Position numbers and translations under genes: made by a program. 64,000 nucleotides of DNA from a virus (Duplodnaviria; Caudoviricetes). The stretch covers positions 67,452 through 131,451 of IMG/VR virus record IMGVR_UViG_3300005577_000027. One strand, given 5' to 3'. Shown one piece after another: positions 53,258-64,000 of this stretch. The notes under the pieces are model-generated. The model saw only the letters and a program-made list of their open reading frames with translations, ran no database searches and had not been told where the DNA came from. How positions within the stretch are numbered: the first letter of the stretch is position 1; every line of letters begins with the position of its first letter.

Positions 53258-54184
53258 TTATATATTTATATTCATTAATTGTGTTCCTAATTTTTTGAGA
53301 AAATTAGAACCGTATGTATTATTTTCTAAATCATTTTCCATAAATTGCGGTAATATTTCATCTTGATACCTAGAAGAAGCAATTCCCCAAGCTATAGAAG
53401 CTACTGAATCTGTATCTCCTCCCCAATTAATAATTCTTTTCATCATGCCTATTAAGCTATTTTCTTCAATTAATAAAGTATTGACAGCATGAGCAGTATT
53501 TATTCCTATTCCTAAATTTTTTGGATCATTTTTATTTTTATGAACAATTCCATTCCAAGGCAATAAAAAATTATATTTAAATAAATTCCAATCAATAAAT
53601 AATTTATAATCACTTATCCATTCATTTAAATATTTAAAAGAATCATTTTTATATAAAGAAAAGTGGCTCATTAATCCGACTAATATGGATGATTGAATCG
53701 CATTATTTGTATTATGAGTTGTAGCCGCTTGAATTTTAGCTATATTAATTATATCTAATGGATTTTTAATAATCCCTAATGGCACAGATCTCATAGCGGC
53801 TCCATTACTATTTGAATCTGTATTAATTAATTTCTTTAATTCATTTACCGAATTAGCTTTTTCCAGAATGCTTTGAAAATTTCTAGAATACCCATCTCTT
53901 TCGTCTCGTTTAAAACAAGATAAAAATGAATACAAAAAATCATCAGAATTAACGTTTGTTCCTTTATTTATTAAAACTTCAGAAATTGCTATAGATTGCT
54001 GAGTATCATCTGTATAATAACCAGGAAGTAATTTATTATACTTAGGATGTTGTAAATATGACTTAAAATTTAATGCTTCAATAAACAAATCTTGATATTT
54101 TAATTGATCAATATATTCTACACAAATAGCATATGCATCAGCTTGAGCAATTCGTAAAAGAATATTATTGTTTTTATTTATCAT
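53258..54184 (-). CDS. ADP-ribosylglycohydrolase (DraG/ARH family)
   Basis: YTDDTQ, SNGAAMR, TTH, GGDTDS. Confidence 0.9.
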   Translation of the reverse strand: MINKNNNILLRIAQADAYAICVEYIDQLKYQDLFIEALNFKSYLQHPKYNKLLPGYYTDDTQQSIAISEVLINKGTNVNSDDFLYSFLSCFKRDERDGYSRNFQSILEKANSVNELKKLINTDSNSNGAAMRSVPLGIIKNPLDIINIAKIQAATTHNTNNAIQSSILVGLMSHFSLYKNDSFKYLNEWISDYKLFIDWNLFKYNFLLPWNGIVHKNKNDPKNLGIGINTAHAVNTLLIEENSLIGMMKRIINWGGDTDSVASIAWGIASSRYQDEILPQFMENDLENNTYGSNFLKKLGTQLMNINI

Positions 54185-54750
54185 TTAAGAGTATATCCGC
54201 CATTTCTTCCACGAATTCCAATCAATTCATTATGAAGCACGGCGTCATTTAATTGAACTTTAATATATTTTGTAAATTTACTTATTTCATTATAATTAAT
54301 TATTAGATCTTTTAAAGCTATATTTGTAATTTGTGTTACACTTATAATATAACTTTTATTATAATTAAGTTTATTGTGTTTTAAAAATTTAATAATATAG
54401 TCAACTATAGTTACACATTTAGTTGAAATTAGAAAATTATAATTAATATGTTTAAATGATAAATATCTATAATTTTCATTATATGAATCTTCTTCATTAT
54501 ATGAATCTTCTTCATTATATAAATCTTCTTCATTTACATTTTTTGATGAATTTTTTTTATTATTTGAATTTGATTCCTTGGGTTTAAAATCGTTTGAATT
54601 AATAATTGTATTTTTAATAGATGAAAGTAAATTATGATGTTTAATCATTTTTACAAATAAAACTGAAGCGTTTCTTACTTCATTTATATCAGAATTATTT
54701 ATTGCTAAATTAAATAATGCTTCTAATCTTGAAAATTCTTTATCATTCAT
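54181..54750 (-). CDS. Hypothetical protein with NEEDSY tandem repeat
   Basis: 18-nt unit about x3 at ~54475-54534. Confidence 0.55.
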   Translation of the reverse strand: MNDKEFSRLEALFNLAINNSDINEVRNASVLFVKMIKHHNLLSSIKNTIINSNDFKPKESNSNNKKNSSKNVNEEDLYNEEDSYNEEDSYNENYRYLSFKHINYNFLISTKCVTIVDYIIKFLKHNKLNYNKSYIISVTQITNIALKDLIINYNEISKFTKYIKVQLNDAVLHNELIGIRGRNGGYTLK

Positions 54751-54759
54751 AATGAATTT

Positions 54760-54788
54760 ATTATAAATTAATAATATTTAATTGTCAA
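54760..54788 (-). promoter_or_regulatory. Consensus sigma70 promoter
   Basis: TTGACA-N17-TATAAT. Confidence 0.85.
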
Positions 54789-54803
54789 CTCTTAGCGATT
54801 TTT

Positions 54804-55979
54804 TTAATTCACTATTTGAAATATTAACCATTCTTCATCAGTTTGAATATCTGGATAATCTTTTCCATTTAAAAAATAACTTTTATATTCATTTGGGGAT
54901 TCCATTGCTGGACCATCAACTCTATGGCATAATCCATTTTGATACCAACATTTATCACCATTAGAAAATTCTATTGCTGGACCATTTTTTCTATGAAGCA
55001 ATCCATATTGATACCAATATTTATTACCATTAAAATATTCTACAGCAGCGCCATCTTCTCTATGAAGAATAGTTGTACCTTCTTTATACCAAAAAATATT
55101 TCCGTATTTATCTGTTTTTGAATAAACTTTTGTCATATTAATTTAATATTTGAAATATAATCCACTCTTCGTCAGAGTGAATATTTGAATATTCATTTCC
55201 ATACAACCAATATTGCTTATAACTATTCTTCATTTCTAAAGCTGGACCATCTGTCCTATGAAACTGTCCATTAATAACCCACCATCTACTTCCATTAGGA
55301 TATTCTATTGCTGGACCATCTACTCTGTGAATTTTCCCATTTTGGTACCATCGCTTTTCTCCATCAGCATATTCTACAGCCGGACCATCTTCTCTATGTA
55401 AAATATCTGTACCTTCTTTATACCAATAAATATTACAATACTCTATTTTTGAATATATTTTTGTCATTAATTTAATATTTGGAATATAACCCATTCTTCA
55501 TCAGTTTTAATATCTGGATAATGTTTCCCATATAAATAATATGCTTTACGACCATCAATGCATTCTATAGCAGGACCATCTGTTCTGTGGCGTCTTCCAT
55601 TTTGATACCACCATTTTGTTCCATCATACCATTCTATTGCCGGACCATCTTCTCTATGGTAGATCAAATATCCTTCATTATCATTTTCTTTATACCATTC
55701 AATGCGATTTTCAAATTCTTTGCTGTATATTTTAATCATTTTTCAATTAATTATTTGAAATATTAACCACTCTTCATCATTTTTTATATCTGAATAATGA
55801 ATATTGTTTAACCAATATTCGTTTTTATAAAAAAATCTTTCATCATGATATTTTATCGCCGGGCCACTTACATTATGTAAACCACAATATGTAGAATAAT
55901 AAGCAGTAAAAATACCACAATCACTTGTATAATAATTTCTATTATAATTATTCGGTTTCATTTTGATTTTATATTTCAT
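54804..55979 (-). repeat. Cluster 5 of HREDGPA paralogs (54804..55136, 55138..55467, 55467..55739, 55743..55979)
   Basis: Four tandem members with EEW(L/I/V)IFQI(I/L/V)N. Confidence 0.9.
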
Positions 55980-56358
55980 CTAATAAATATATTCTCAAAG
56001 TTTTTTATAATTAAATCTAAAGATTAATTATATTTAATATAATATTTTATTGAATGTTAACAATTGTATTAATTCTGAACAAATAGAAATTTTAGCTTCC
56101 AAAACAGGATTATATTTTGTTTCTAAATTATTATATAATCTAGCCCTATCTTCTATTTTATTAAGAATAGATAATAATTCTTCTTTTGTTATATAATCTT
56201 CGTTTTTCATTTATTTATACCTATTTCACAATACCAACAATAAGCTCGAGTAGTTTTACATCCACAATTTTTACATCTTCCACGTAGCTTAGTTCGTATA
56301 TTTAAATATATAAAAATAAGTAATATTAAAACTATAAGTATAACAATAAATTTTTCCA

Positions 56359-57051
56359 TTATAAATTATTTAATTGATTTCCAATTTGTAATTCTTGTGA
56401 AATTTCTACCAGTCTATTTTTAATTTGAGGATTAATACTTTCTAATAAAGGTAGAATTTCTTTTCTAACTTTAACTCTTAAATAATCCATATTCTCATTT
56501 GACGGATCATTTGCATATAAAATATTCCACCGCTTTAAATGTGCTAAAATTCTGTTTTTAGGTACAGAGAGTAATGGCCTGAAAATTCCAATACCATTAT
56601 TAGACACTTCTGGCAAAACATTTAATGAGCCAATATTTTTACCACGCAAAAGTCTGATCATAACAGTCTCTGCATAATCGTCAAAATGATGTGCAGTTAC
56701 TATTACATTGCCATATTCAAACAATGCATCATATCTTGCTTTCCTTGCATGTGATTGTATTCCTTCCGGACCATCAATCACTTTTACCACCTTGCGATAA
56801 AAAGGAACATTGATTTTTAAAGCAAGATTTTCTGCTAAATCAAGTTCTGAATTAGCTTCATTTCTTAGACCATGATTGATTCCTACTGCAATACAATCAT
56901 GACCCAATTCTCTTGCTACTCGAGGAAAAGATACAAGCAAACATTGTGAATCAGAACCACCAGATACTCCTAAAGTAAATTTAGTAGGAGTTTTATAGTT
57001 TCGATTAATTGATTCAGTTAATGCTTTGTGAATATTTCGTTCGAGTTTCAT
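56359..57051 (-). CDS. tilS: tRNA(Ile)-lysidine synthase
   Basis: GVSGGSDS, NHGLR, ARKARY, TAHHFDD.AET, RPLL, DPSN; adjacent tRNA-CAT. Confidence 0.92.
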   Translation of the reverse strand: MKLERNIHKALTESINRNYKTPTKFTLGVSGGSDSQCLLVSFPRVARELGHDCIAVGINHGLRNEANSELDLAENLALKINVPFYRKVVKVIDGPEGIQSHARKARYDALFEYGNVIVTAHHFDDYAETVMIRLLRGKNIGSLNVLPEVSNNGIGIFRPLLSVPKNRILAHLKRWNILYANDPSNENMDYLRVKVRKEILPLLESINPQIKNRLVEISQELQIGNQLNNL

Positions 57052-57056
57052 TTTTT

Positions 57057-57092
57057 ATCTAACTCTTATATCGGTTAGCTGATATTAATATT
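57057..57092 (-). CRISPR. Orphan CRISPR repeat upstream of tilS
   Basis: atctaactcttatatcggttagctgatatt vs array gtctaactcttatagaggttagcttctatt (25/30), stem CTAAC/GTTAG intact. Confidence 0.7.
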
Positions 57093-57118
57093 TTGCTCCA
57101 ATTTCATTTTATTAAAAA

Positions 57119-57196
57119 TGGTGGGCCGTGTAGGACTTGAACCTACAGCCTCAAAATTATGAGTTTTTTGCTCTAGACCTATTGAGCTAACGGCCC
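57119..57196 (-). tRNA. tRNA-Ile2(CAT), with encoded CCA
   Basis: GGGCCGTTAGCTCA..CTCATAA..GGTTCAAGTCC..CGGCCCACCA; beside tilS. Confidence 0.88.
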
Positions 57197-57216
57197 GTAA
57201 TGTTTGTACTATCTTT

Positions 57217-57245
57217 AGTCTAAGTTCATTAACTTATATTGTCAA
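57217..57245 (-). promoter_or_regulatory. Promoter of the tRNA-Ile2/tilS unit
   Basis: TTGACA-N17-TAGACT. Confidence 0.75.
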
Positions 57246-57314
57246 GCGTTTTTAAAATTCTTTATAAAATCTATTAATAAATCTGAATAAGTTCATAACA
57301 TCGAGAGGAATGGT

Positions 57315-58019
57315 ATGAACTTATGTGTAATATGTAATACTGAAATTGAAAATTGTCAATCAAAATTTTGTTCACAAACTTGTAAAACAAAATATTTTAA
57401 TTCAAAAAATAATAATTATTCTATACAAAAAGACCGCGGAATCAATAGAAAACTATACTTTATAAATAAAAAGGGAGGATGTTGTGAAATTTGCGGGTAT
57501 AAACAAAACATGGCTGGATTAGTTTTTCATCATATAGACCCTAGTAAAAAAAAATTTAATGTTGATGGAAGGTCCCTAGGAAATAGATCTTTAAAAGAAT
57601 TAACACTTGAGGTGGAAAAATGCCAATTATTATGTCATCTATGTCATACTCATCATCATAATCCACATTTAGACATGAGTAATTTCGATGAACATATTAT
57701 TAATATTGAATTAAAAAGTCACATATGTAAAGAATTAATCAATAAAACTGAAGAAGAAATTAATAAAATTATTGAAAGTATAAATAATACTAATTTAAAT
57801 AAAACAGCTTTATGGTTAGAAGTATCTTCTACTGCATTATCTAATTTTTTAGATAGAGAAAATTTACGTGATAGAATCAAATTTTTCCGTCAAACTAAAA
57901 TTCAATGGCCTTCAAATGAAGAATTATTGAAAATGCTTTCAGAATCTAATTACTCAGCAGTTGGACGAAAATTAGGTGTAAGTGATAATGCTATTCGCAA
58001 ACATTTAAAATCCAAGTAA
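57315..58019 (+). CDS. HNH endonuclease with N-terminal Zn finger and C-terminal HTH (homing-type)
   Basis: CEICGY, FHHIDP..K, EVEKCQLLCHLCH, VGRKLGVSDNAIRK. Confidence 0.85.
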   Translation: MNLCVICNTEIENCQSKFCSQTCKTKYFNSKNNNYSIQKDRGINRKLYFINKKGGCCEICGYKQNMAGLVFHHIDPSKKKFNVDGRSLGNRSLKELTLEVEKCQLLCHLCHTHHHNPHLDMSNFDEHIINIELKSHICKELINKTEEEINKIIESINNTNLNKTALWLEVSSTALSNFLDRENLRDRIKFFRQTKIQWPSNEELLKMLSESNYSAVGRKLGVSDNAIRKHLKSK

Positions 58020-58173
58020 ACTTTAATTTTAAGGTATAATTAAGTTATTATTACAATATCTGCTTTAAATATTATTACGGTTACCTGATATTTACAATCC
58101 GTAATCTTCGTACTGTATTTAATTACATTGTCAAGCGGCTTATTATTTAATAAACAGCATAGTGCAGAAACTG

Positions 58174-59509
58174 GTCTAATTCTTTTTAGCGATTAGCTGC
58201 TATTATTTGCTTGATCTTTCAAATATCATCATGATACCGCCGTTGTAGTCTAACATTTATAGTAGTTAGCAACTATTACTTAATATCTTGTTTCAGTGCG
58301 ATTGAACTTCTTACTGTCGTTAATTCTTATATTAGTTAGCTGATATTGTTTGTTGAAGCCAAATTTAATCATGTCGACGAGAAACGTGTCTAACTCTTAT
58401 AGAGGTTAGCTTCTATTGATGCTGTTGAAAGTGGCACTCGATCCCACCATTTAGTCTCGGGCCTAACTCTTATAGAGGTTAGTTTCTATTGCTAATATGG
58501 TGACGATGATGTCTAGTACGTGGACTATTATTTGCCTAACTCTCATAGAGGTTAGCTTCTATTACTGACGGGCCGGTGAGAAAGAATAAGATATTCGGAC
58601 GACTAATCTAACTCTCATAGAGGTTAGCTTCTATTATTGACATCGACCGCTTCGCGCGATTTGCGGTTGGAGGGCCGTCTAACTCTTATAGAGGTTAGTT
58701 TCTATTGATGCCGCTATGTGGTGGAGGATGTCTGCCATCACCATTTCGTCTAACTCTTAGAGAGGTTAGCTTCTATTGCTGACTTCGCACTATTTTTTTG
58801 ATCGGTCAGCAGCTTTACGCATTTAACTCTTATAGATGTTAGTTTCTATTGATGCCAGTCGAGAGTGGCACTCGACACCATCATTTAATCCTCACGTCTA
58901 AACTCTTATAGAGGTTAGTTTCTATTACTGACCGCCCTCAGTGACGCCAGGCCCGCCTAACTCTTATAGAGGTTAGTTTCTATTGTTGATAACGTAAGAA
59001 CCGGAGACTGCGTTGGTGACTGGCCGCAAGCCTAACTCTTATAAAGGTTAGCTTCTATTGCTGACGTTTGTTATTTTGTTAAAATTTCTGTCACAATCTG
59101 TCTAATTCTTATAGAGATTAGCTACTATTGATGATGTAATTAAATTACTGCCTAGTGTGTTTTCGCCTTTGCACTGTTCGTCATAGTCTAACTTTTATAG
59201 AAGTTAGCTTCTATTGACGCAGTCATACCTAACGTGAGCATTTCGATTCAAAGTGTCGTCTAACTCTTATAGAGGTTAGCTTCTATTGCCAACACCAAGG
59301 GGGATAAACTTGGCGCCTACTTGGATGCGGTCTAACGCTTATAGAGGTTAGCTTCTATTGCCAACCGACTTAGATCCCGCTGGAAAGTAATGGCAGAATC
59401 GGTCTAACGCTTATAGAGGTTAGCTTCTATTGCCAACAGTGGGTGCAAAAATGGCTGCCAACATCTATTACAGGTCTAACGCTTATAGAGGTTAGCTTCT
59501 ATTGCCAAC
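58174..59509 (-). CRISPR. CRISPR array: 19 repeats (36 nt) and 18 spacers (22-50 nt)
   Basis: Leader-proximal repeat GTTGGCAATAGAAGCTAACCTCTATAAGCGTTAGAC (minus strand). Repeat left ends at 59474, 59402, 59330, 59258, 59186, 59100, 59030, 58955, 58896, 58821, 58748, 58677, 58606, 58534, 58461, 58388, 58318, 58248, 58174. Confidence 0.97.
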
Positions 59510-59700
59510 GGGCGATCAAAATTACTTATATTTTCAAAGATCTACGAAGCACATTGCGAGAGGTTACGTTTACACCCCATCACGCAATGATTATAGTCAC
59601 GATTCAGGCAAACGTCAACCAAATTTAAGCTAATAATTCTGGTGACTTACGTGTTTTGCGAGCGGTTCCGGGTAATTTCACAGCACCAGACCGCTCGCCA
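59510..59700 (-). promoter_or_regulatory. CRISPR leader with promoter TTGACG-N17-TATAAT (59590..59618)
   Basis: Promoter points into the array; inverted repeats CATTGCG/CGCAATG (59552-59589) and GCGAGCGGT/ACCGCTCGC (59658-59698). Confidence 0.8.
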
Positions 59701-61721
59701 TGTCGATCAAACAAGTGAGCTGCCGCATTGTAATTAACGTTTACAGATTTATTACATTTTTTACAATGTACGTCTGATAATTCTTTTTGATTAATTAATT
59801 CTCCGCCACATTTAAAATGTTCTTTAGAAATATTTTTTGCGTTTTCTTCACAAAAATCTTTTCCAAATTTCTGCTTTAGTGCGTCAGTTAAAACACTTAC
59901 TCCAACAAATTGACGCACCGCATTAGCATTTTCTTCTTGCTTTGTACGATTATCATTTTCAACATCAGGAGTTTCGGCAGTTTTAGATTTATCCCAGTTT
60001 TCAACGATAACCTTTCCATAGGTGCTAGATAACTTCTTTGCAAAACAACGGTAAATTTCTTTTCGATGTTTTCGAAGTTTTGATTCAATACCACGGGCCC
60101 AATTAATTAAATGAATTTCTTTTTCTGCCCAAGTCTTTAAATAAAAAGCCATCTGAACATTGGGATCATCAATCGAATTATCTTTACACCACTGAATAGT
60201 ATTATCTAATGTTGTAAATAAATCATCTTTATCACTACAATTTTTCCAAGGTTTATTTTCTTTACAATGAGTTTTCCATTTTTTCCAAAGATCATACCAA
60301 GTATTATCTGGTAAAAATACTTTAGCTAATTCTTTAGAGACGAATAGAAGTTTTTTATGCGATCTCCACTGTGGCAAATTTGTGAAATATTTCGTAATAC
60401 ATTCATCTAAATTTGAATTCTTTAACCATTTTGATACATCTTTCTTAACAGAATCAAAATGTTTATCAGCATGACTAATCAATGTTTCTTTATAAACTAT
60501 ATTTGCACGCATCTTAGAAGGCAAAATTAATTCATTATAATTTTTACCATCAAAGCTAGTAGCAACGGTAATATCATCTGTTTGATCATTTACTTTCCAT
60601 CCTAAATTAATAGCAACATCATCTGGACGAATAGCTGAAGGCTGAGTAAATGAATTAGACTCAATCGTAAATTGAATATTATAAATACTACGATATCCAA
60701 TTTTAGATACAACTAAAAATACCCATTTAATTGTAGCATCTTCTGGCATTTGGCGATGCATAATAAAAGGAATATCTACAAACTTTCCAGTTTTTTCAGT
60801 GCCAAAAAGTTTAATGCGCGCTGTAGCTAAAACTTTATTTTTCTTTTTATTTTGCCGTAAATAAACTTCTGGATGTAAATCAATCTTAAGAACAGGACTT
60901 GACCCACTTAGGGCATCTTTAATTGACAGACCTTTATTTTGAGTAAGCTGCATGCCAATTTTTCCTGAACCATCAAATGATTTAAATTTTGGCTCAAATT
61001 TAGAATTTGAAAAGGATTGTTTTGCAGCCTCTTCAATACTAACATAAGTTCCACTTGAGCATTTGCAATTACTTCTTGCTCGTTTATTTGATGCTTCAGC
61101 TGATTTAGAAATTTTCGCTTTGATAGCCCAAAACCTATTTCCACCATCAATCATTTCTTTGTAGAGATTATTCACTACATTGTGACGATTAACATCATTT
61201 GGACCAAGAGAATCCTTATTTAATTCTTTAGCTTTTTGTTCTAAGCGTTCTTTCTTTAGAAGAGAAAATTTACTATCAGCTTCTTTGAAATAATCTAAAT
61301 TTAATTGAGTATGAATAGATTTAATCTTAGCACTTAAATCTTTTTTCTTTAATTTTAAATCCTTAATTTCTACAGCTTGCGGAGTTAACTGACGATTTTT
61401 TTTAGGAAATTTAGGATCTAAACTATTTTCCGCACGGCCGCCAAAACTTTTACGTAATTCAATAATTTTCTCTTCAGTGAGAAGTAGATCGTTTTCCAGC
61501 TGACGTAATTCTGGTGACATTAATTTACGAAGGTTACGGAAGCGATTTCGACGCTTTCGTTCAATTTCTACAAGTTTGTTTCGGTATTTATGCGCAAAAT
61601 ATAATTGATCATTAATTAATTTAATTTGCTCTGATTCTTTAGGAAGAAAAGCTCCATAAGAATACACTTTCGTTTCAGAGGTTGAAGTTTTACGAGCGTT
61701 GGATTTTTTAACTGGTTCCAT
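59625..61721 (-). CDS. cas12m: Type V CRISPR effector, Cas12m (V-U1)-like, RuvC predicted inactive
   Basis: VYSYG..AHKYRNKLVEIE, FDGSGKIGMQL, MHRQMPEDA.IK, RuvC-I VAINLGWK, QWRS, RKEIYR, RuvC-II IVENW, Zn finger HFKC/CKKC, RuvC-III NVNYNAA; adjacent array. Confidence 0.85.
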   Translation of the reverse strand: MEPVKKSNARKTSTSETKVYSYGAFLPKESEQIKLINDQLYFAHKYRNKLVEIERKRRNRFRNLRKLMSPELRQLENDLLLTEEKIIELRKSFGGRAENSLDPKFPKKNRQLTPQAVEIKDLKLKKKDLSAKIKSIHTQLNLDYFKEADSKFSLLKKERLEQKAKELNKDSLGPNDVNRHNVVNNLYKEMIDGGNRFWAIKAKISKSAEASNKRARSNCKCSSGTYVSIEEAAKQSFSNSKFEPKFKSFDGSGKIGMQLTQNKGLSIKDALSGSSPVLKIDLHPEVYLRQNKKKNKVLATARIKLFGTEKTGKFVDIPFIMHRQMPEDATIKWVFLVVSKIGYRSIYNIQFTIESNSFTQPSAIRPDDVAINLGWKVNDQTDDITVATSFDGKNYNELILPSKMRANIVYKETLISHADKHFDSVKKDVSKWLKNSNLDECITKYFTNLPQWRSHKKLLFVSKELAKVFLPDNTWYDLWKKWKTHCKENKPWKNCSDKDDLFTTLDNTIQWCKDNSIDDPNVQMAFYLKTWAEKEIHLINWARGIESKLRKHRKEIYRCFAKKLSSTYGKVIVENWDKSKTAETPDVENDNRTKQEENANAVRQFVGVSVLTDALKQKFGKDFCEENAKNISKEHFKCGGELINQKELSDVHCKKCNKSVNVNYNAAAHLFDRHGERSGAVKLPGTARKTRKSPELLA

Positions 61722-61771
61722 AATATTATTTATTGGTTATGTATTATATGTAAATCGTAAATGGGTATATG

Positions 61772-62326
61772 TCAAGAATTAATATTTAAATCTAATTTAG
61801 ACTTATATAAAAAATTCGTCCCTGATTCTTTAATTTTTTGAATTATAGTTTTTATAACGTTTTCATCTAATCTGCGCCATTCAGTTCCGCCATCTAAGTG
61901 ATATTTAGATGTATAGTATTTAATAGCATTTTTTAATTTTAGATTTCCATCTATTGTGTAAATTGTTTGGAAATGCTCAGGATTACCAACTTGAATATTT
62001 TTTACTCGTTTATTTGGAGCAATAGATAATCCAATTTTCCATATAGTTGGATCATTCGAATGTCTAGCAAAATAAACTTGAGTTTTTCTATTTTTAATTT
62101 TACTAATAGATTTTTTATCCAAACCTAATGGATCATATTTAATATGAATATTCAATTTACATTTTTTAATTAATTTAATATATTCTTGAAATATAAGAAA
62201 ATCATCTTCTAATTCTGGTAGATTCTTTATTTGTTTTTTACCAGAATTAGGATTAAAATTATGTTTTCGTTGAATTAATTTCAATCTATTTTCAATATAT
62301 TTAATTACATTTAATTTATCAATCAT
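61772..62326 (-). CDS. GIY-YIG/T5orf172-like domain protein
   Basis: VYFAR..WKIGLS..PNKRVKNIQVGNP..TEW. Confidence 0.75.
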   Translation of the reverse strand: MIDKLNVIKYIENRLKLIQRKHNFNPNSGKKQIKNLPELEDDFLIFQEYIKLIKKCKLNIHIKYDPLGLDKKSISKIKNRKTQVYFARHSNDPTIWKIGLSIAPNKRVKNIQVGNPEHFQTIYTIDGNLKLKNAIKYYTSKYHLDGGTEWRRLDENVIKTIIQKIKESGTNFLYKSKLDLNINS

Positions 62327-62328
62327 AA

Positions 62329-62739
62329 TTATTTCGTAATTGTTGTAATCAATTCTTTTACAGCAAAATAATCTGGAGAATTATATCTTATAATACCATT
62401 AGAGATTAAATCTATACTATCATTTAAAAGAAGCATAGAAAAAATTAAAACAATTGCACCGCAAATGGCTTGCGAAAAAACAAAATAAGAATCAGTTTTA
62501 ATAAGTTTAAGAAACATATTATAAACTAATTTTTTATAAACAAGTAATATTAGCATAATAATTACACTATATCCAATGCCTTTAATGATTTCTTGTATTG
62601 CTAACATCCGCTGATAATGGACCAAAATTTTCCAAGCATCCGGAGTAACTTTAGCAACGGAATTGGCTATATGTTCTACTCCATTGCTAATTTTGTTTAT
62701 TACATTATCAACTAAATCTAATGTTGTTTTATTATCCAT
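62329..62739 (-). CDS. Hypothetical membrane protein
   Basis: Two TM segments, C-terminal PDYFAVKE. Confidence 0.6.
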   Translation of the reverse strand: MDNKTTLDLVDNVINKISNGVEHIANSVAKVTPDAWKILVHYQRMLAIQEIIKGIGYSVIIMLILLVYKKLVYNMFLKLIKTDSYFVFSQAICGAIVLIFSMLLLNDSIDLISNGIIRYNSPDYFAVKELITTITK

Positions 62740-62764
62740 TTTTTATTTCTATTTAAAAAAGTAG

Positions 62765-62837
62765 CTCCAGCTCAAGGACTCGAACCTTGGACCCGGCGGT
62801 TAACAGCCGCCTGCTCTACCAACTGAGCTAAGCTGGA
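62765..62837 (-). tRNA. tRNA-Asn(GTT)
   Basis: TCCAGCTTAGCTCAGTTGGTAGAGC..CTGTTAA..GGTTCGAGTCC..AGCTGGAG; promoter TTGACA-N17-TATTAT at 62853..62881. Confidence 0.93.
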
Positions 62838-62884
62838 ATGTTTATTATCTATATAATAGATCTTACGTATCAATTTGTCAAGGC

Positions 62885-64000
62885 TTAATTTATAATTTGA
62901 AATATAATCCATTCTTCATCAGTTTTAATATTTGGGTATGGTTTATCATTTAACCAATATTCTTTATCACCATTAGGCCATATTACAGCAGGACCATCCG
63001 TTCTATGACATTTTTCACTCTGGTACCATTCTTTATGTCCAGAGTTATTTTCTATAGCTGGTCCATCAGCTCTATGCCACATATCATTTTGATACCAATG
63101 CTTAGTTCCATCAACAAATTCTATAGCTGGACCATCTTCTCTATGAAGAATATTTGTACCTTCTTTACACCAATAAATATTTCCATATTTATCTTTTTTT
63201 GAATATACTTTAGTCATTTTTAATTAATTATCTGAAATATAATCCACTCTTCATCAGTTTTAATATCTGGATAATATTTATTATTCAACCAATATTGTTT
63301 ATCTCCATTTATGTATTCTACAGCGGGACCATCTATTCTATGAATTTCTCCATTAATACACCAATGTTTATCACCATTAATCCATTCTATTGCTGGGCCA
63401 TTCTCTCTATGACATAATCCATTTTTGAACCATTGTTTTTCTCCATCATTCCACTCTAATGCTGGGCCATCTATTCTATGGTATAGATCATTTTGATACC
63501 AAAACTTACCTCCATTAGAACACTCTACAGCTGGTCCGTCTTCCCTATGAAGAATATTAGTACCTTCTTTATACCAATAAAGATTACTAAGTTCATTTGT
63601 TTTACAAACTACTTTAGTCATATTAATTTATAATTTGAAATATTAACCACTCTTCATCAGTGTTAATATCTATATACCATTTACCATTTAACCAATATTC
63701 TTTTCCTCCATTTTCATATTCTACAGCAGGGCCATCAATTCTATGACGCTTTCCATCATAGCACCACCACTTTTCTCCATCATAAAATTCTAATGCGGGC
63801 CCACTTTCTCTATGAAAGATACCATTTTGATACCAATATTTGGTTCCATTGGTACATTCTATAGCTGGACCGTCATCCCTATGACGAATATTTGTACCTT
63901 CTTTATACCAATGAATGTTATTATATTTATCTATACTAGAATAGACTTTAGTCATATTAATTTATAATTTGAAATATTAACCATTCTTCATCAGAATTAA
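62885..64000 (-). repeat. Cluster 6 of HREDGPA paralogs (62885..63217, 63220..63621, 63623..63955, partial 63957..64000)
   Basis: 3-4 repeats each plus the shared tail; runs off the window edge. Confidence 0.9.

What the first reader, a model, noticed from the sequence alone, without database searches (positions are those of the whole stretch)
58174..59221. Degenerate repeats keep their hairpin by compensatory changes
Seen: only the 3-4 leader-proximal repeats are (near) identical; the other 15 drift, mostly at the crRNA 5' end and loop. The stem is preserved with paired changes: CTAAT/ATTAG at 59100 and 58174, and CTAACTT/AAGTTAG at 59186. Spacer lengths there vary from 22 to 50 nt, versus exactly 36 nt for the four newest. 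Inference: the old part is not decaying but is a long-retained set of regulatory guides under selection, while the leader end still acquires spacers.
Basis: partly seen in the sequence, partly recalled or inferred. Interest (0 to 1): 0.75.

Follow-up and report, generated by a model that had tools for sequence, protein, structure and literature searches.

The report
Phage Cas12m array with layered repeats
This is the CRISPR array of a DNA-binding-only Cas12m-type system carried by a very large soil phage; its older repeats differ from the newest ones mostly in ways that keep the guide-RNA fold, but they also show ordinary decay and turnover, so they are not shown to be a protected set of regulatory guides.

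Summary
There are 19 units of a 36-nt repeat. The four next to the leader are near-identical with exactly 36-nt spacers. The other 15 drift and have 22-50-nt spacers.

The array lies downstream of a 698-aa Cas12m-like gene (PDB Cas12m, E 3e-31) on a 28% GC virus record. Read on the minus strand, the repeat has the Cas12m scaffold: a free 5' tail, a 5-bp pseudoknot helix and a 5-bp hairpin.

Substitutions avoid or compensate both helices:
- 7 broken pairs against 19.7 expected, and 5 double changes against 0.86.
- 96.3% of cells paired, with no shuffle of 500 reaching this.

The inference is only partly supported:
- The double changes sit in trailer-type units, and the trailer ends of 3 of 5 relatives' arrays examined show the same. 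They read as older repeat generations.
- Variants seen in one unit only are not depleted at paired sites.
- Pairs are broken, one arm has a bulge, and spacers carry insertions and deletions.
- A strain about 4% diverged has a different middle of the array.
- No target was found.

Verdict: an ordinary but instructive member of type V-M.

The parts
59625..61721 (-). cas12m-like effector gene (698 aa, P0001). The RuvC positions read N372, E574 and N663.
   Evidence: One search gives the translation. One search matches PDB 23vw_A Cas12m (E 3.2e-31) and Cas12m2 8hhl (E 1.9e-8), and the printed alignment shows N, E and N where 23vw has D, E and D. In alignment A1, 9 of 10 proteins have N at RuvC-I, and only this protein has N at RuvC-III.
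59510..59624 (-). Leader between the effector's stop codon and the first repeat, with a sigma-70-like promoter site at 59618 to 59590.
   Evidence: In one search this site matches 11 of 12 consensus positions with a 17-nt spacer, the best of the 20 sites found in 56900-61900. The number of sites in the region is not above the shuffles, so the site on its own is weak evidence.
59258..59509 (-). The four newest units: repeats at 59474, 59402, 59330 and 59258, with three 36-nt spacers between them.
   Evidence: Three repeats are identical; the fourth differs only at loop position -8.
58388..59257 (-). Twelve middle units (repeats at 59186, 59100, 59030, 58955, 58896, 58821, 58748, 58677, 58606, 58534, 58461 and 58388) with spacers of 22 to 50 nt, including the 36-nt spacer 59222-59257.
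   Evidence: The recurrent variants are at unpaired positions -23, -2, -11 and -1. Broken pairs occur in the units at 58821, 58748 and 59100, and the unit at 58896 has a bulge.
58174..58353 (-). Three trailer units (58318, 58248, 58174), with 9 to 13 substitutions each and spacers of lower GC.
   Evidence: One search shows double changes at the pseudoknot pairs -25/-16 and -26/-15 and at the hairpin pair -18/-7. In one search the unit at 58318 keeps 3 of 5 hairpin pairs here but 5 of 5 in run X2.
57057..57092 (-). Solitary repeat unit between a tRNA gene and the start of a TilS-like gene. It keeps both helices through two double changes.
   Evidence: In some searches it keeps 5 of 5 hairpin pairs and 5 of 5 pseudoknot pairs. 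In one search a contig of X2 joins 57055 to 57112, so the 56 nt that hold this unit are absent there. (families D5 and D9) shows flanking 24-nt direct repeats.
57255..58156 (+). Inserted block carrying an HNH endonuclease gene (57315-58019) and a decayed repeat-like copy (58063-58098).
   Evidence: P0002 matches phrog_3106, HNH endonuclease, E 2.3e-18; one contig of X4 joins 57254 to 58157 (depth 2.7, 48 letters on the shorter side); the repeat-like copy keeps 3 of 5 pairs in each helix.

Best explanation
This is the crRNA array of a type V-M-like CRISPR-Cas12m system carried by a very large phage.

How it works. The array is transcribed on the minus strand from a leader promoter just downstream of the effector gene. 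Each unit gives a 36-nt repeat-derived scaffold followed by its guide. The scaffold has a free 5' tail of 6-7 nt, a 5-bp pseudoknot helix (-29..-25 with -16..-12) and a 5-bp hairpin (-22..-18 with -7..-3). The effector's RuvC positions read N-E-N, so by analogy with its family it acts by binding DNA, not by cutting it.

What the repeat differences are. Shown: the differences along the array avoid or compensate both helices. Inferred: most compensated differences separate generations of the repeat, namely trailer-type units, middle-type units and the newest type. On this reading the array is a layered record of a repeat that changed together with its effector while units were added at the leader end.

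Decay and turnover. On top of that record there is ordinary in-place decay (broken pairs, a bulge, insertions and deletions in spacers) and gain or loss of blocks of units between strains. Most old units probably still fold and could load the effector. The last three, and the unit at 58821, are compromised. Nothing shows that the old guides form a conserved regulatory set.
For: Identity and orientation:
- The effector is homologous to Cas12m and carries the N-E-N triad.
- 21 fetched relatives' loci have an array on the gene's strand, and in 20 of them it starts within about 500 nt after the gene. The period is about 72 and the repeats end alike.
- A promoter-like site lies in the leader.
- No anti-repeat occurs in 54000-64000.
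- Cas1, Cas2 and Cas4 are absent from the 131-kb record.

Fold:
- Passages of PMC10442227 describe a 36-nt scaffold with a disordered 5' end and a helix at -22..-17 with -8..-3.
- In one search, 10 of 12 relatives' repeats have their best 3' stem in the same register (5' arm starting at -23 or -22, 3' arm ending at -3). In 6 of 12 the longest upstream-to-loop complement starts at -29 or -28, with different letters in different arrays.
- RNAalifold picks the pseudoknot helix on the window's units.

Non-randomness:.

Generations:
- All five double-changed cells in the array lie in the units at 58174, 58248, 58318 and 59100; the solitary unit at 57057 has two more.
- The unit at 59100 shares variants with 58174 and 58248. 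It lies within the stretch that an X2 contig skips.
- Trailer units of L013, L021 and L012 are a variant repeat with 1-3 stem double changes.

Decay and turnover:
- Broken pairs and insertions or deletions.
- The unit at 58318 keeps 3 of 5 hairpin pairs here and 5 of 5 in X2.
- Between strains, the spacers 58354-58387, 58570-58605 and 58713-58747 differ by insertions and deletions, some at the guide-proximal end. The X2 homologue of the 50-nt spacer is 36 nt (tables 4, 5 and 5c).
- The spacers 58424-58460 and 58857-58895, together with the tail of the following repeat, are about 80% alike along their whole length. Their repeats differ at 5 of 36 positions.
Against: - The test that would separate inherited differences from in-place selection has little power. 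Across the 15 old units only 11 variants occur in a single unit: 6 at the 20 paired sites and 5 at the 9 unpaired sites (p 0.33). That is compatible with no selection and also with a threefold depletion.
- At least six old spacers are shared with run X2 (58284-58317, 58424-58460, 58570-58605, 58713-58747, the right-hand 36 nt of 59136-59185, and 59222-59257). A seventh, 58354-58387, is shared in strongly diverged form.
- The shared array pieces differ by 12 substitutions in 424 nt. That is no more than the 3.4-5.8% seen in the flanking genes, so some constraint on old units cannot be excluded.
- One hairpin pair of the unit at 58318 reads C.A here and U-A in X2. This could be a compensation completed in place in X2.
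- The strand, the processing and the expression of the crRNAs are inferred, not observed.
Confidence: 0.6

Rival explanations
1. One reading: the 15 old units are kept by selection as a standing set of repressor guides for a binding-only effector, while only the leader end turns over.
For: - Both helices are kept far better than chance.
- The effector family silences by binding, and its RuvC positions read N-E-N.
- At least six old spacers are shared with a strain about 4% diverged, and the shared pieces are no more diverged than the flanking genes.
- Old spacers keep about 45% GC in a 28% GC genome.
Against: - There are 7 broken pairs, a bulge, and insertions or deletions, some at the guide-proximal end.
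- An X2 contig joins across seven middle units.
- The double changes cluster in trailer-type units, and relatives show the same pattern.
- No guide matches the 131-kb record, and none matches the phage or plasmid collections.
- The GC level is also what neutral decay over this divergence would leave (my estimate, not a call).
Confidence: 0.2
2. The array is a composite. Blocks with different repeat variants were brought together by recombination between arrays of related phages, so the compensated differences arose in other lineages and not along this array's own history.
For: - Variants are distributed as a mosaic, not in strict order along the array (-23, -2, -11 and -1).
- A trailer-type unit at 59100 sits in the middle, next to an AT-rich spacer, and lies within the stretch skipped in X2.
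- Paralogous spacer-plus-repeat units exist.
- The two strains' arrays are not collinear.
- An HNH block nearby has very low divergence over 57112-58319 (4 differences listed), which fits recent exchange.
Against: - The strongest variants do sit at the trailer end, as simple ageing predicts.
- The same trailer-end position is seen in L013, L021 and L012.
- No donor array was found; no close relative with an array is in the collections searched.
Confidence: 0.12
3. Pure neutral decay. The paired changes are chance products of the genome's drift from G-C to A-T, which turns both partners of a G-C pair into A-U.
For: - Three of the five double changes are G-C to A-U by two transitions. G to A and C to T are the commonest changes (12 and 8 of 42).
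- The window's GC is 28%.
Against: - The permutation used the observed spectrum and still gives 0.86 double changes against 5 observed (P 0.0007), and 19.7 broken pairs against 7.
- Two double changes are paired transversions, A-U to U-A and A-U to C-G, the latter against the drift.
- The solitary unit adds two more.
Confidence: 0.03

Closest known systems
Type V-M CRISPR-Cas12m (Mycolicibacterium mucogenicum Cas12m2, Gordonia otitidis Cas12m; PMC10442227 and PMC11013384, passages read)
   Same: - The effector is homologous.
- The repeat is 36 nt, with a helix at -22..-18 with -7..-3 and a dispensable 5' end.
- The array lies downstream of the gene, with no anti-repeat and no adaptation genes nearby.
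- The RuvC triad is non-canonical.
   Different: - The protein has 698 aa against about 600, and about 22-26% identity to the shorter Cas12m-like proteins.
- The triad reads N-E-N. The papers list HDD, DED, NED, DND, NDD, HEK and HQK; the closest relatives read N-E-D.
- It is carried by a very large AT-rich phage, not by an actinobacterial replicon.
- Binding, PAM and processing are untested here.
CRISPR systems of huge phages (PMC7162821, passages read)
   Same: It is phage-borne, lacks Cas1, Cas2 and Cas4, and has a small type V effector next to an array. That paper proposes repression by effectors that lack catalytic residues, and it mentions degeneration of old-end phage spacers.
   Different: That paper gives a median of six repeats per phage array; this one has 19 units. 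It highlights Cas12j.
Compensatory base changes in CRISPR repeats between arrays (PMC1896005; only the search listing and the start of the abstract were seen)
   Same: Repeat hairpins are kept by paired substitutions.
   Different: That work compares repeats of different genomes. Here the paired changes are seen between units of one array, and also in a pseudoknot helix.
Standalone repeat-like elements and mini-arrays that make cr-like regulatory RNAs (bioRxiv 10.1101/2023.03.03.530964, passages read)
   Same: A solitary, structurally intact repeat lies outside the array (57057-57092), next to a gene start.
   Different: Those elements are reported mostly for type I and subtype V-A. Their spacers are partly complementary to cas or cargo promoters. 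No such target was found here.

Membership tests
Type V-M CRISPR-Cas (Cas12m) | Effector homologous to Cas12m | tested here: met
   PDB 23vw_A Cas12m at E 3.2e-31, with three aligned stretches covering residues 14-671; Cas12m2 8hhl at E 1.9e-8. Pfam gives only a weak Cas12f1-like TNB hit below its cut-off.
Type V-M CRISPR-Cas (Cas12m) | Non-canonical or inactivated RuvC triad | tested here: met
   The positions read N372, E574 and N663, by alignment to 23vw (D, E, D) and in A1. This exact combination is not among those listed in the passages.
Type V-M CRISPR-Cas (Cas12m) | A 36-nt repeat that forms the 5' handle, with a 3'-proximal stem and a pseudoknot; array downstream of the gene | tested here: met
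   The register matches the structure described in PMC10442227.
Type V-M CRISPR-Cas (Cas12m) | No tracrRNA | tested here: met
   no 14-mer with at most one mismatch that is complementary to the repeat occurs in 54000-64000 outside the array.
Type V-M CRISPR-Cas (Cas12m) | No adaptation genes in the locus | tested here: met
   no Cas1, Cas2 or Cas4 in the 131,451-base record. CheckV estimates the record to be 31% complete, so the rest of the genome is unseen.
Type V-M CRISPR-Cas (Cas12m) | PAM-dependent DNA binding without cleavage | not testable with these tools
   Inferred from homology and the N-E-N triad only.
   an X2 contig joins 58636 to 59161 with 16 other letters between. Shared spacers carry insertions and deletions, and the stretch 58320-58386 differs at 12 positions plus 7 gap letters.
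   No match in the 131-kb record (the best is 16 of 17 bases for an AT-rich spacer). The host is unknown and host genomes were not searched.
   No holder of the stretch is on record as RNA.

The most novel reading that the evidence does not exclude
A nuclease-dead (N-E-N) phage Cas12m keeps a standing library of repressor guides. In addition, it has planted a structurally intact solitary scaffold directly in front of its own TilS-like gene. The RNA made there would carry a guide against the TilS start of rival strains that lack the insert, as run X2 does. Its own copy would be shielded because the repeat occupies the PAM side. That would be RNA-guided silencing used in competition between closely related huge phages.
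Probability: 0.1. Interest if true: 0.75.

Novelty: new member of a known kind. Interest (0 to 1): 0.4.

Why it matters
The units of this array amount to a small natural mutational scan of a Cas12m guide scaffold. They show which positions may vary: the first 6-7 bases, -23, -17, -11, -9, -8, -2 and -1. They show that both helices tolerate only paired changes. That is useful for designing compact Cas12m repressors and base editors.

The array also shows, together with three relatives' arrays, that Cas12m arrays can preserve successive versions of their repeat. This gives a way to trace co-evolution of repeat and effector.

It adds a roughly 700-aa phage-borne clade with an N-E-N member to type V-M. 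It does not show a new mechanism.

Tried and rejected
Searches for close relatives with an array:
- The phage collection gave only a tRNA match.
- Viral contigs gave nothing, either with the protein or with the repeat pattern.
- The profile search gave only relatives of 20-29% identity, plus L009 (68% identity). L009 is 1.7 kb and ends inside the gene, so it holds no array.
- The closer homologues P0005-P0009 (34-48% identity) could not be fetched, because the look-up tool for encoding contigs is closed.

Searches for targets:
- The 131-kb record gave chance-level matches only.
- The phage and plasmid collections gave a best E of 1.
- An exact 30-nt piece of the newest spacer found 0 matches in viral contigs.
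- Host genomes and metagenomes were not searched for protospacers.

Expression: no RNA holder is listed. Run X3 is labelled RNA-Seq only by a guess. It covers scattered 151-nt pieces, including two array pieces. I draw nothing from it.

Parts without cover in X2: no X2 contig covers 59286-59481, the three newest spacers. The depth in those bins is fully accounted for by the two flanking contigs (my arithmetic). This is not evidence that they are absent.

GC of guide-proximal against guide-distal halves of old spacers: 0.48 against 0.43, which is not informative.

The pair G(-23) with A(-2), described for Cas12m2, shows no covariation here.

An extended inner stem in the hairpin loop is not kept in the newest repeats, so I rejected it.

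In one search, three arrays (L002, L019, L027) gave too short a consensus and were not analysed.

Full report
**What is at the coordinates.** Between 58174 and 59509 lie 19 units of a 36-nt repeat with a period near 72. The four units at the high-coordinate end (59474, 59402, 59330, 59258) are identical except for one loop base in the fourth. Their spacers are exactly 36 nt. The other 15 units vary, and their spacers run from 22 nt (58933-58954) to 50 nt (59136-59185).

**What system it is.**
- Directly upstream on the minus strand lies a 698-aa ORF (59625-61721). It matches solved Cas12m structures: 23vw_A at E 3.2e-31 and Cas12m2 8hhl at E 1.9e-8.
- In the printed alignment, and in alignment A1, the three RuvC positions read N372, E574 and N663. 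23vw has D, E and D there. The closest homologues (P0005-P0009, 34-48% identity) read N-E-D.
- Passages of PMC10442227 and PMC11013384 state that Cas12m proteins with several non-canonical triads bind DNA in a PAM-dependent way without cutting it, and that they silence by blocking transcription or replication. They also state that such loci typically lack adaptation genes.
- Here Cas1, Cas2 and Cas4 are absent from the 131,451-base record, and no anti-repeat lies within 54000-64000.
- The record is a virus record that CheckV rates as 31% complete. The exact protein is also on record on a 390,274-base contig.
- The window holds RIIA-like, RNA ligase, DNA ligase and HNH genes and has 28% GC. This is a very large phage.

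**Strand and fold.**
- A promoter-like site matching 11 of 12 consensus positions lies in the leader on the minus strand.
- In 21 relatives' loci an array lies on the gene's strand, in 20 of them starting within about 500 nt after the gene, with a period of 71-77. Nearly all of the repeats recovered at full length (36-37 nt) end alike.
- Read on the minus strand, the repeat has the register described for Cas12m2: the 5' end is disordered and a helix spans -22..-17 with -8..-3. Here the hairpin is -22..-18 with -7..-3, and positions -29..-25 pair with -16..-12 in the loop, which makes a pseudoknot.
- In one search, 10 of 12 relatives' repeats have their best stem in that register. In 6 of 12 the longest upstream-to-loop complement starts at -29 or -28, with different letters in different arrays.
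- RNAalifold, run on the window's own units, picks the pseudoknot helix.

**Test of the compensation claim.**
- Over the 15 old units, substitutions per site per unit are 0.31 in the 7-nt tail, 0.17 at the 9 unpaired scaffold sites and 0.063 at the 20 paired sites.
- Placing each unit's substitutions at random within -29..-1, using the observed spectrum, gives 19.7 broken pairs (sd 3.1) against 7 observed; none of 20000 trials was as low. It gives 0.86 double changes against 5 observed (P 0.0007).
- I ran the count of structure pairs on 16 rows. These were 15 array units plus the solitary unit. I left out the two duplicate newest units and the two units with an insertion (58896 and 58174).
- It gives 96.3% of 160 cells paired, against 91.2% in shuffles (0 of 500 as high). 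Five cells have both sides changed, against 0.9 in shuffles (0 of 500). Slid controls give 21-39% paired.

**Where the paired changes are.**

| Pair | Consensus | Changed state | Units |
|---|---|---|---|
| Hairpin -18/-7 | C-G | U-A | 59100, 58174 |
| Pseudoknot -25/-16 | A-U | U-A | 58248 |
| Pseudoknot -25/-16 | A-U | C-G | 58174, solitary 57057 |
| Pseudoknot -26/-15 | G-C | U-A | 58318, solitary 57057 |

All these units are trailer-type units.
- The unit at 59100 shares variants with 58174 and 58248 and sits next to a 24% GC spacer. It lies inside a stretch that a related strain's contig skips. Its paired change is therefore most simply the same event as in 58174.
- In the 12 middle units the common variants (-23 in five units, -2 in four, -11 and -1 in two each) are all unpaired: 15 such cells against 4 at paired sites (p 2.3e-5).
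- Variants found in a single unit number only 11 across the 15 old units: 6 at paired sites and 5 at unpaired sites (p 0.33). The data cannot show that selection still acts on each old unit in place.

**The same pattern in relatives.** I listed ten relatives' arrays unit by unit. I checked five that have variant gene-distal units.

| Locus | Variant units checked | Stem double changes kept | Broken pairs |
|---|---|---|---|
| L013 | 3 | 3, 1 and 2 | 0, 2 and 1 |
| L021 | 5 | 1 in each | 0 |
| L012 | 1 (terminal) | 3 | 1 |
| L001 | 1 (terminal) | 2 (ambiguous) | 1 |
| L041 | 1 (terminal) | 0 | 5 |

Layered repeat versions with compensated stems are thus a recurring feature of these arrays.

**Decay and turnover.**
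- Seven pairs are broken in the old units. The unit at 58896 has a bulge and the unit at 58174 has a longer loop.
- Run X2 comes from another study. Its cas12m differs at 75 of 1777 positions. It shares the old spacers 58284-58317, 58424-58460, 58570-58605, 58713-58747 and 59222-59257, the right-hand 36 nt of 59136-59185, and 58354-58387 in strongly diverged form.
- One X2 contig joins 58636 to 59161 with 16 other letters between. Seven of our middle units are therefore not in that array form. The homologue of our 50-nt spacer comes out at 36 nt, which I infer from tables 5 and 5c.
- X2 and X3 also hold a 36-nt spacer between repeats that is not in the window.
- Shared spacers differ by insertions and deletions. 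These include three letters at the guide-proximal end of 58713-58747 and six letters near that end of 58354-58387.
- The unit at 58318 keeps 3 of 5 hairpin pairs here and 5 of 5 in X2.
- The spacers 58424-58460 and 58857-58895, with the tail of the following repeat, are about 80% alike over their whole length. This looks like a duplicated unit that has since diverged in both spacer and repeat.

**Targets.** None of 20 guides (18 spacers and 2 flanking pseudo-guides) matches the 131-kb record beyond chance. The phage and plasmid collections give a best E of 1. A 30-nt piece of the newest spacer has no exact match in viral contigs. Host genomes were not searched.

**Reading.**
- The fold has plainly constrained which repeat variants arose and spread. 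Most old units probably still fold.
- The compensated differences are best read as older versions of the repeat, not as proof that each old unit is maintained.
- There is clear in-place damage, and units are gained and lost between strains.
- The word 'regulatory' adds nothing that can be tested here: for a binding-only effector, every guide silences.
- Acquisition at the leader end is plausible from the four fresh units, but it was not shown.

**Limits.**
- No close relative with an array could be fetched.
- The strain comparison rests on short contigs that break at repeats.
- The supplementary tables of the Cas12m papers and of the huge-phage paper were closed. I therefore could not check whether this clade or its repeat is already listed there.
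- My statement that within-array repeat generations are not described in print rests only on the search.

Noticed in passing
window 57031-57112: A solitary repeat unit (57057-57092, minus strand) sits between a tRNA gene and the start codon of a TilS-like gene. It keeps all 10 pairs through two double changes. It is flanked by 24-nt direct repeats, 57031-57054 and 57087-57110, and the upstream copy resembles the TilS start. A contig of run X2 joins 57055 to 57112, so the 56-nt insert is a strain polymorphism. Its origin and role are unexplained.
   Followed up: partly
window 56359-57196: A tRNA with anticodon CAT (57119-57196, minus strand) lies just upstream of a TilS-like lysidine synthetase gene (56359-57051; TIGR02432, E 2.4e-41). 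The tRNA may be a tRNA-Ile2 that the phage's own TilS modifies, not a tRNA-Met.
   Followed up: no
window 57255-58156: A block with an HNH endonuclease gene (phrog_3106, E 2.3e-18) is skipped by one X4 contig. It is bounded by copies of a promoter-like 21-mer (57228-57248 and 58117-58137) and carries a decayed repeat-like copy at 58063-58098. Between this genome and X2, the stretch 57112-58319 shows only 4 listed differences, against 3.4-5.8% in the neighbouring genes. This fits recent homing with co-conversion.
   Followed up: partly
window 58320-58386: There is a patch of very high divergence between this genome and X2: 12 substitutions and 7 gap letters in 67 nt. It covers one repeat unit and its spacer. 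On its left, 57112-58319 shows 4 listed differences; on its right, 58389-58492 shows 1 difference in 104 nt. Unexplained.
   Followed up: no
window 58424-58460, 58857-58895, 58713-58747: Two spacers are about 80% alike over their whole length, and the similarity includes the tail of the next repeat. A third spacer is weakly alike. Either units were duplicated inside the array, or one target site was acquired repeatedly from diverged targets.
   Followed up: partly
window 59625-61721 (P0001): The RuvC positions read N-E-N, while the nearest homologues read N-E-D. The protein is about 100 aa longer than characterised Cas12m proteins, and PHROGs has no family for it.
   Followed up: partly
L020:9898-14196: A relative on a 148,729-base metagenome contig has an array of about 60 units. 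It has many repeat variants and irregular spacing in its gene-distal third, so it is a larger case of the same layering.
   Followed up: no
whole record G000: The record is rated 31% complete, and the exact effector protein is on record on a 390,274-base contig. The phage genome is therefore probably near 400 kb.
   Followed up: no
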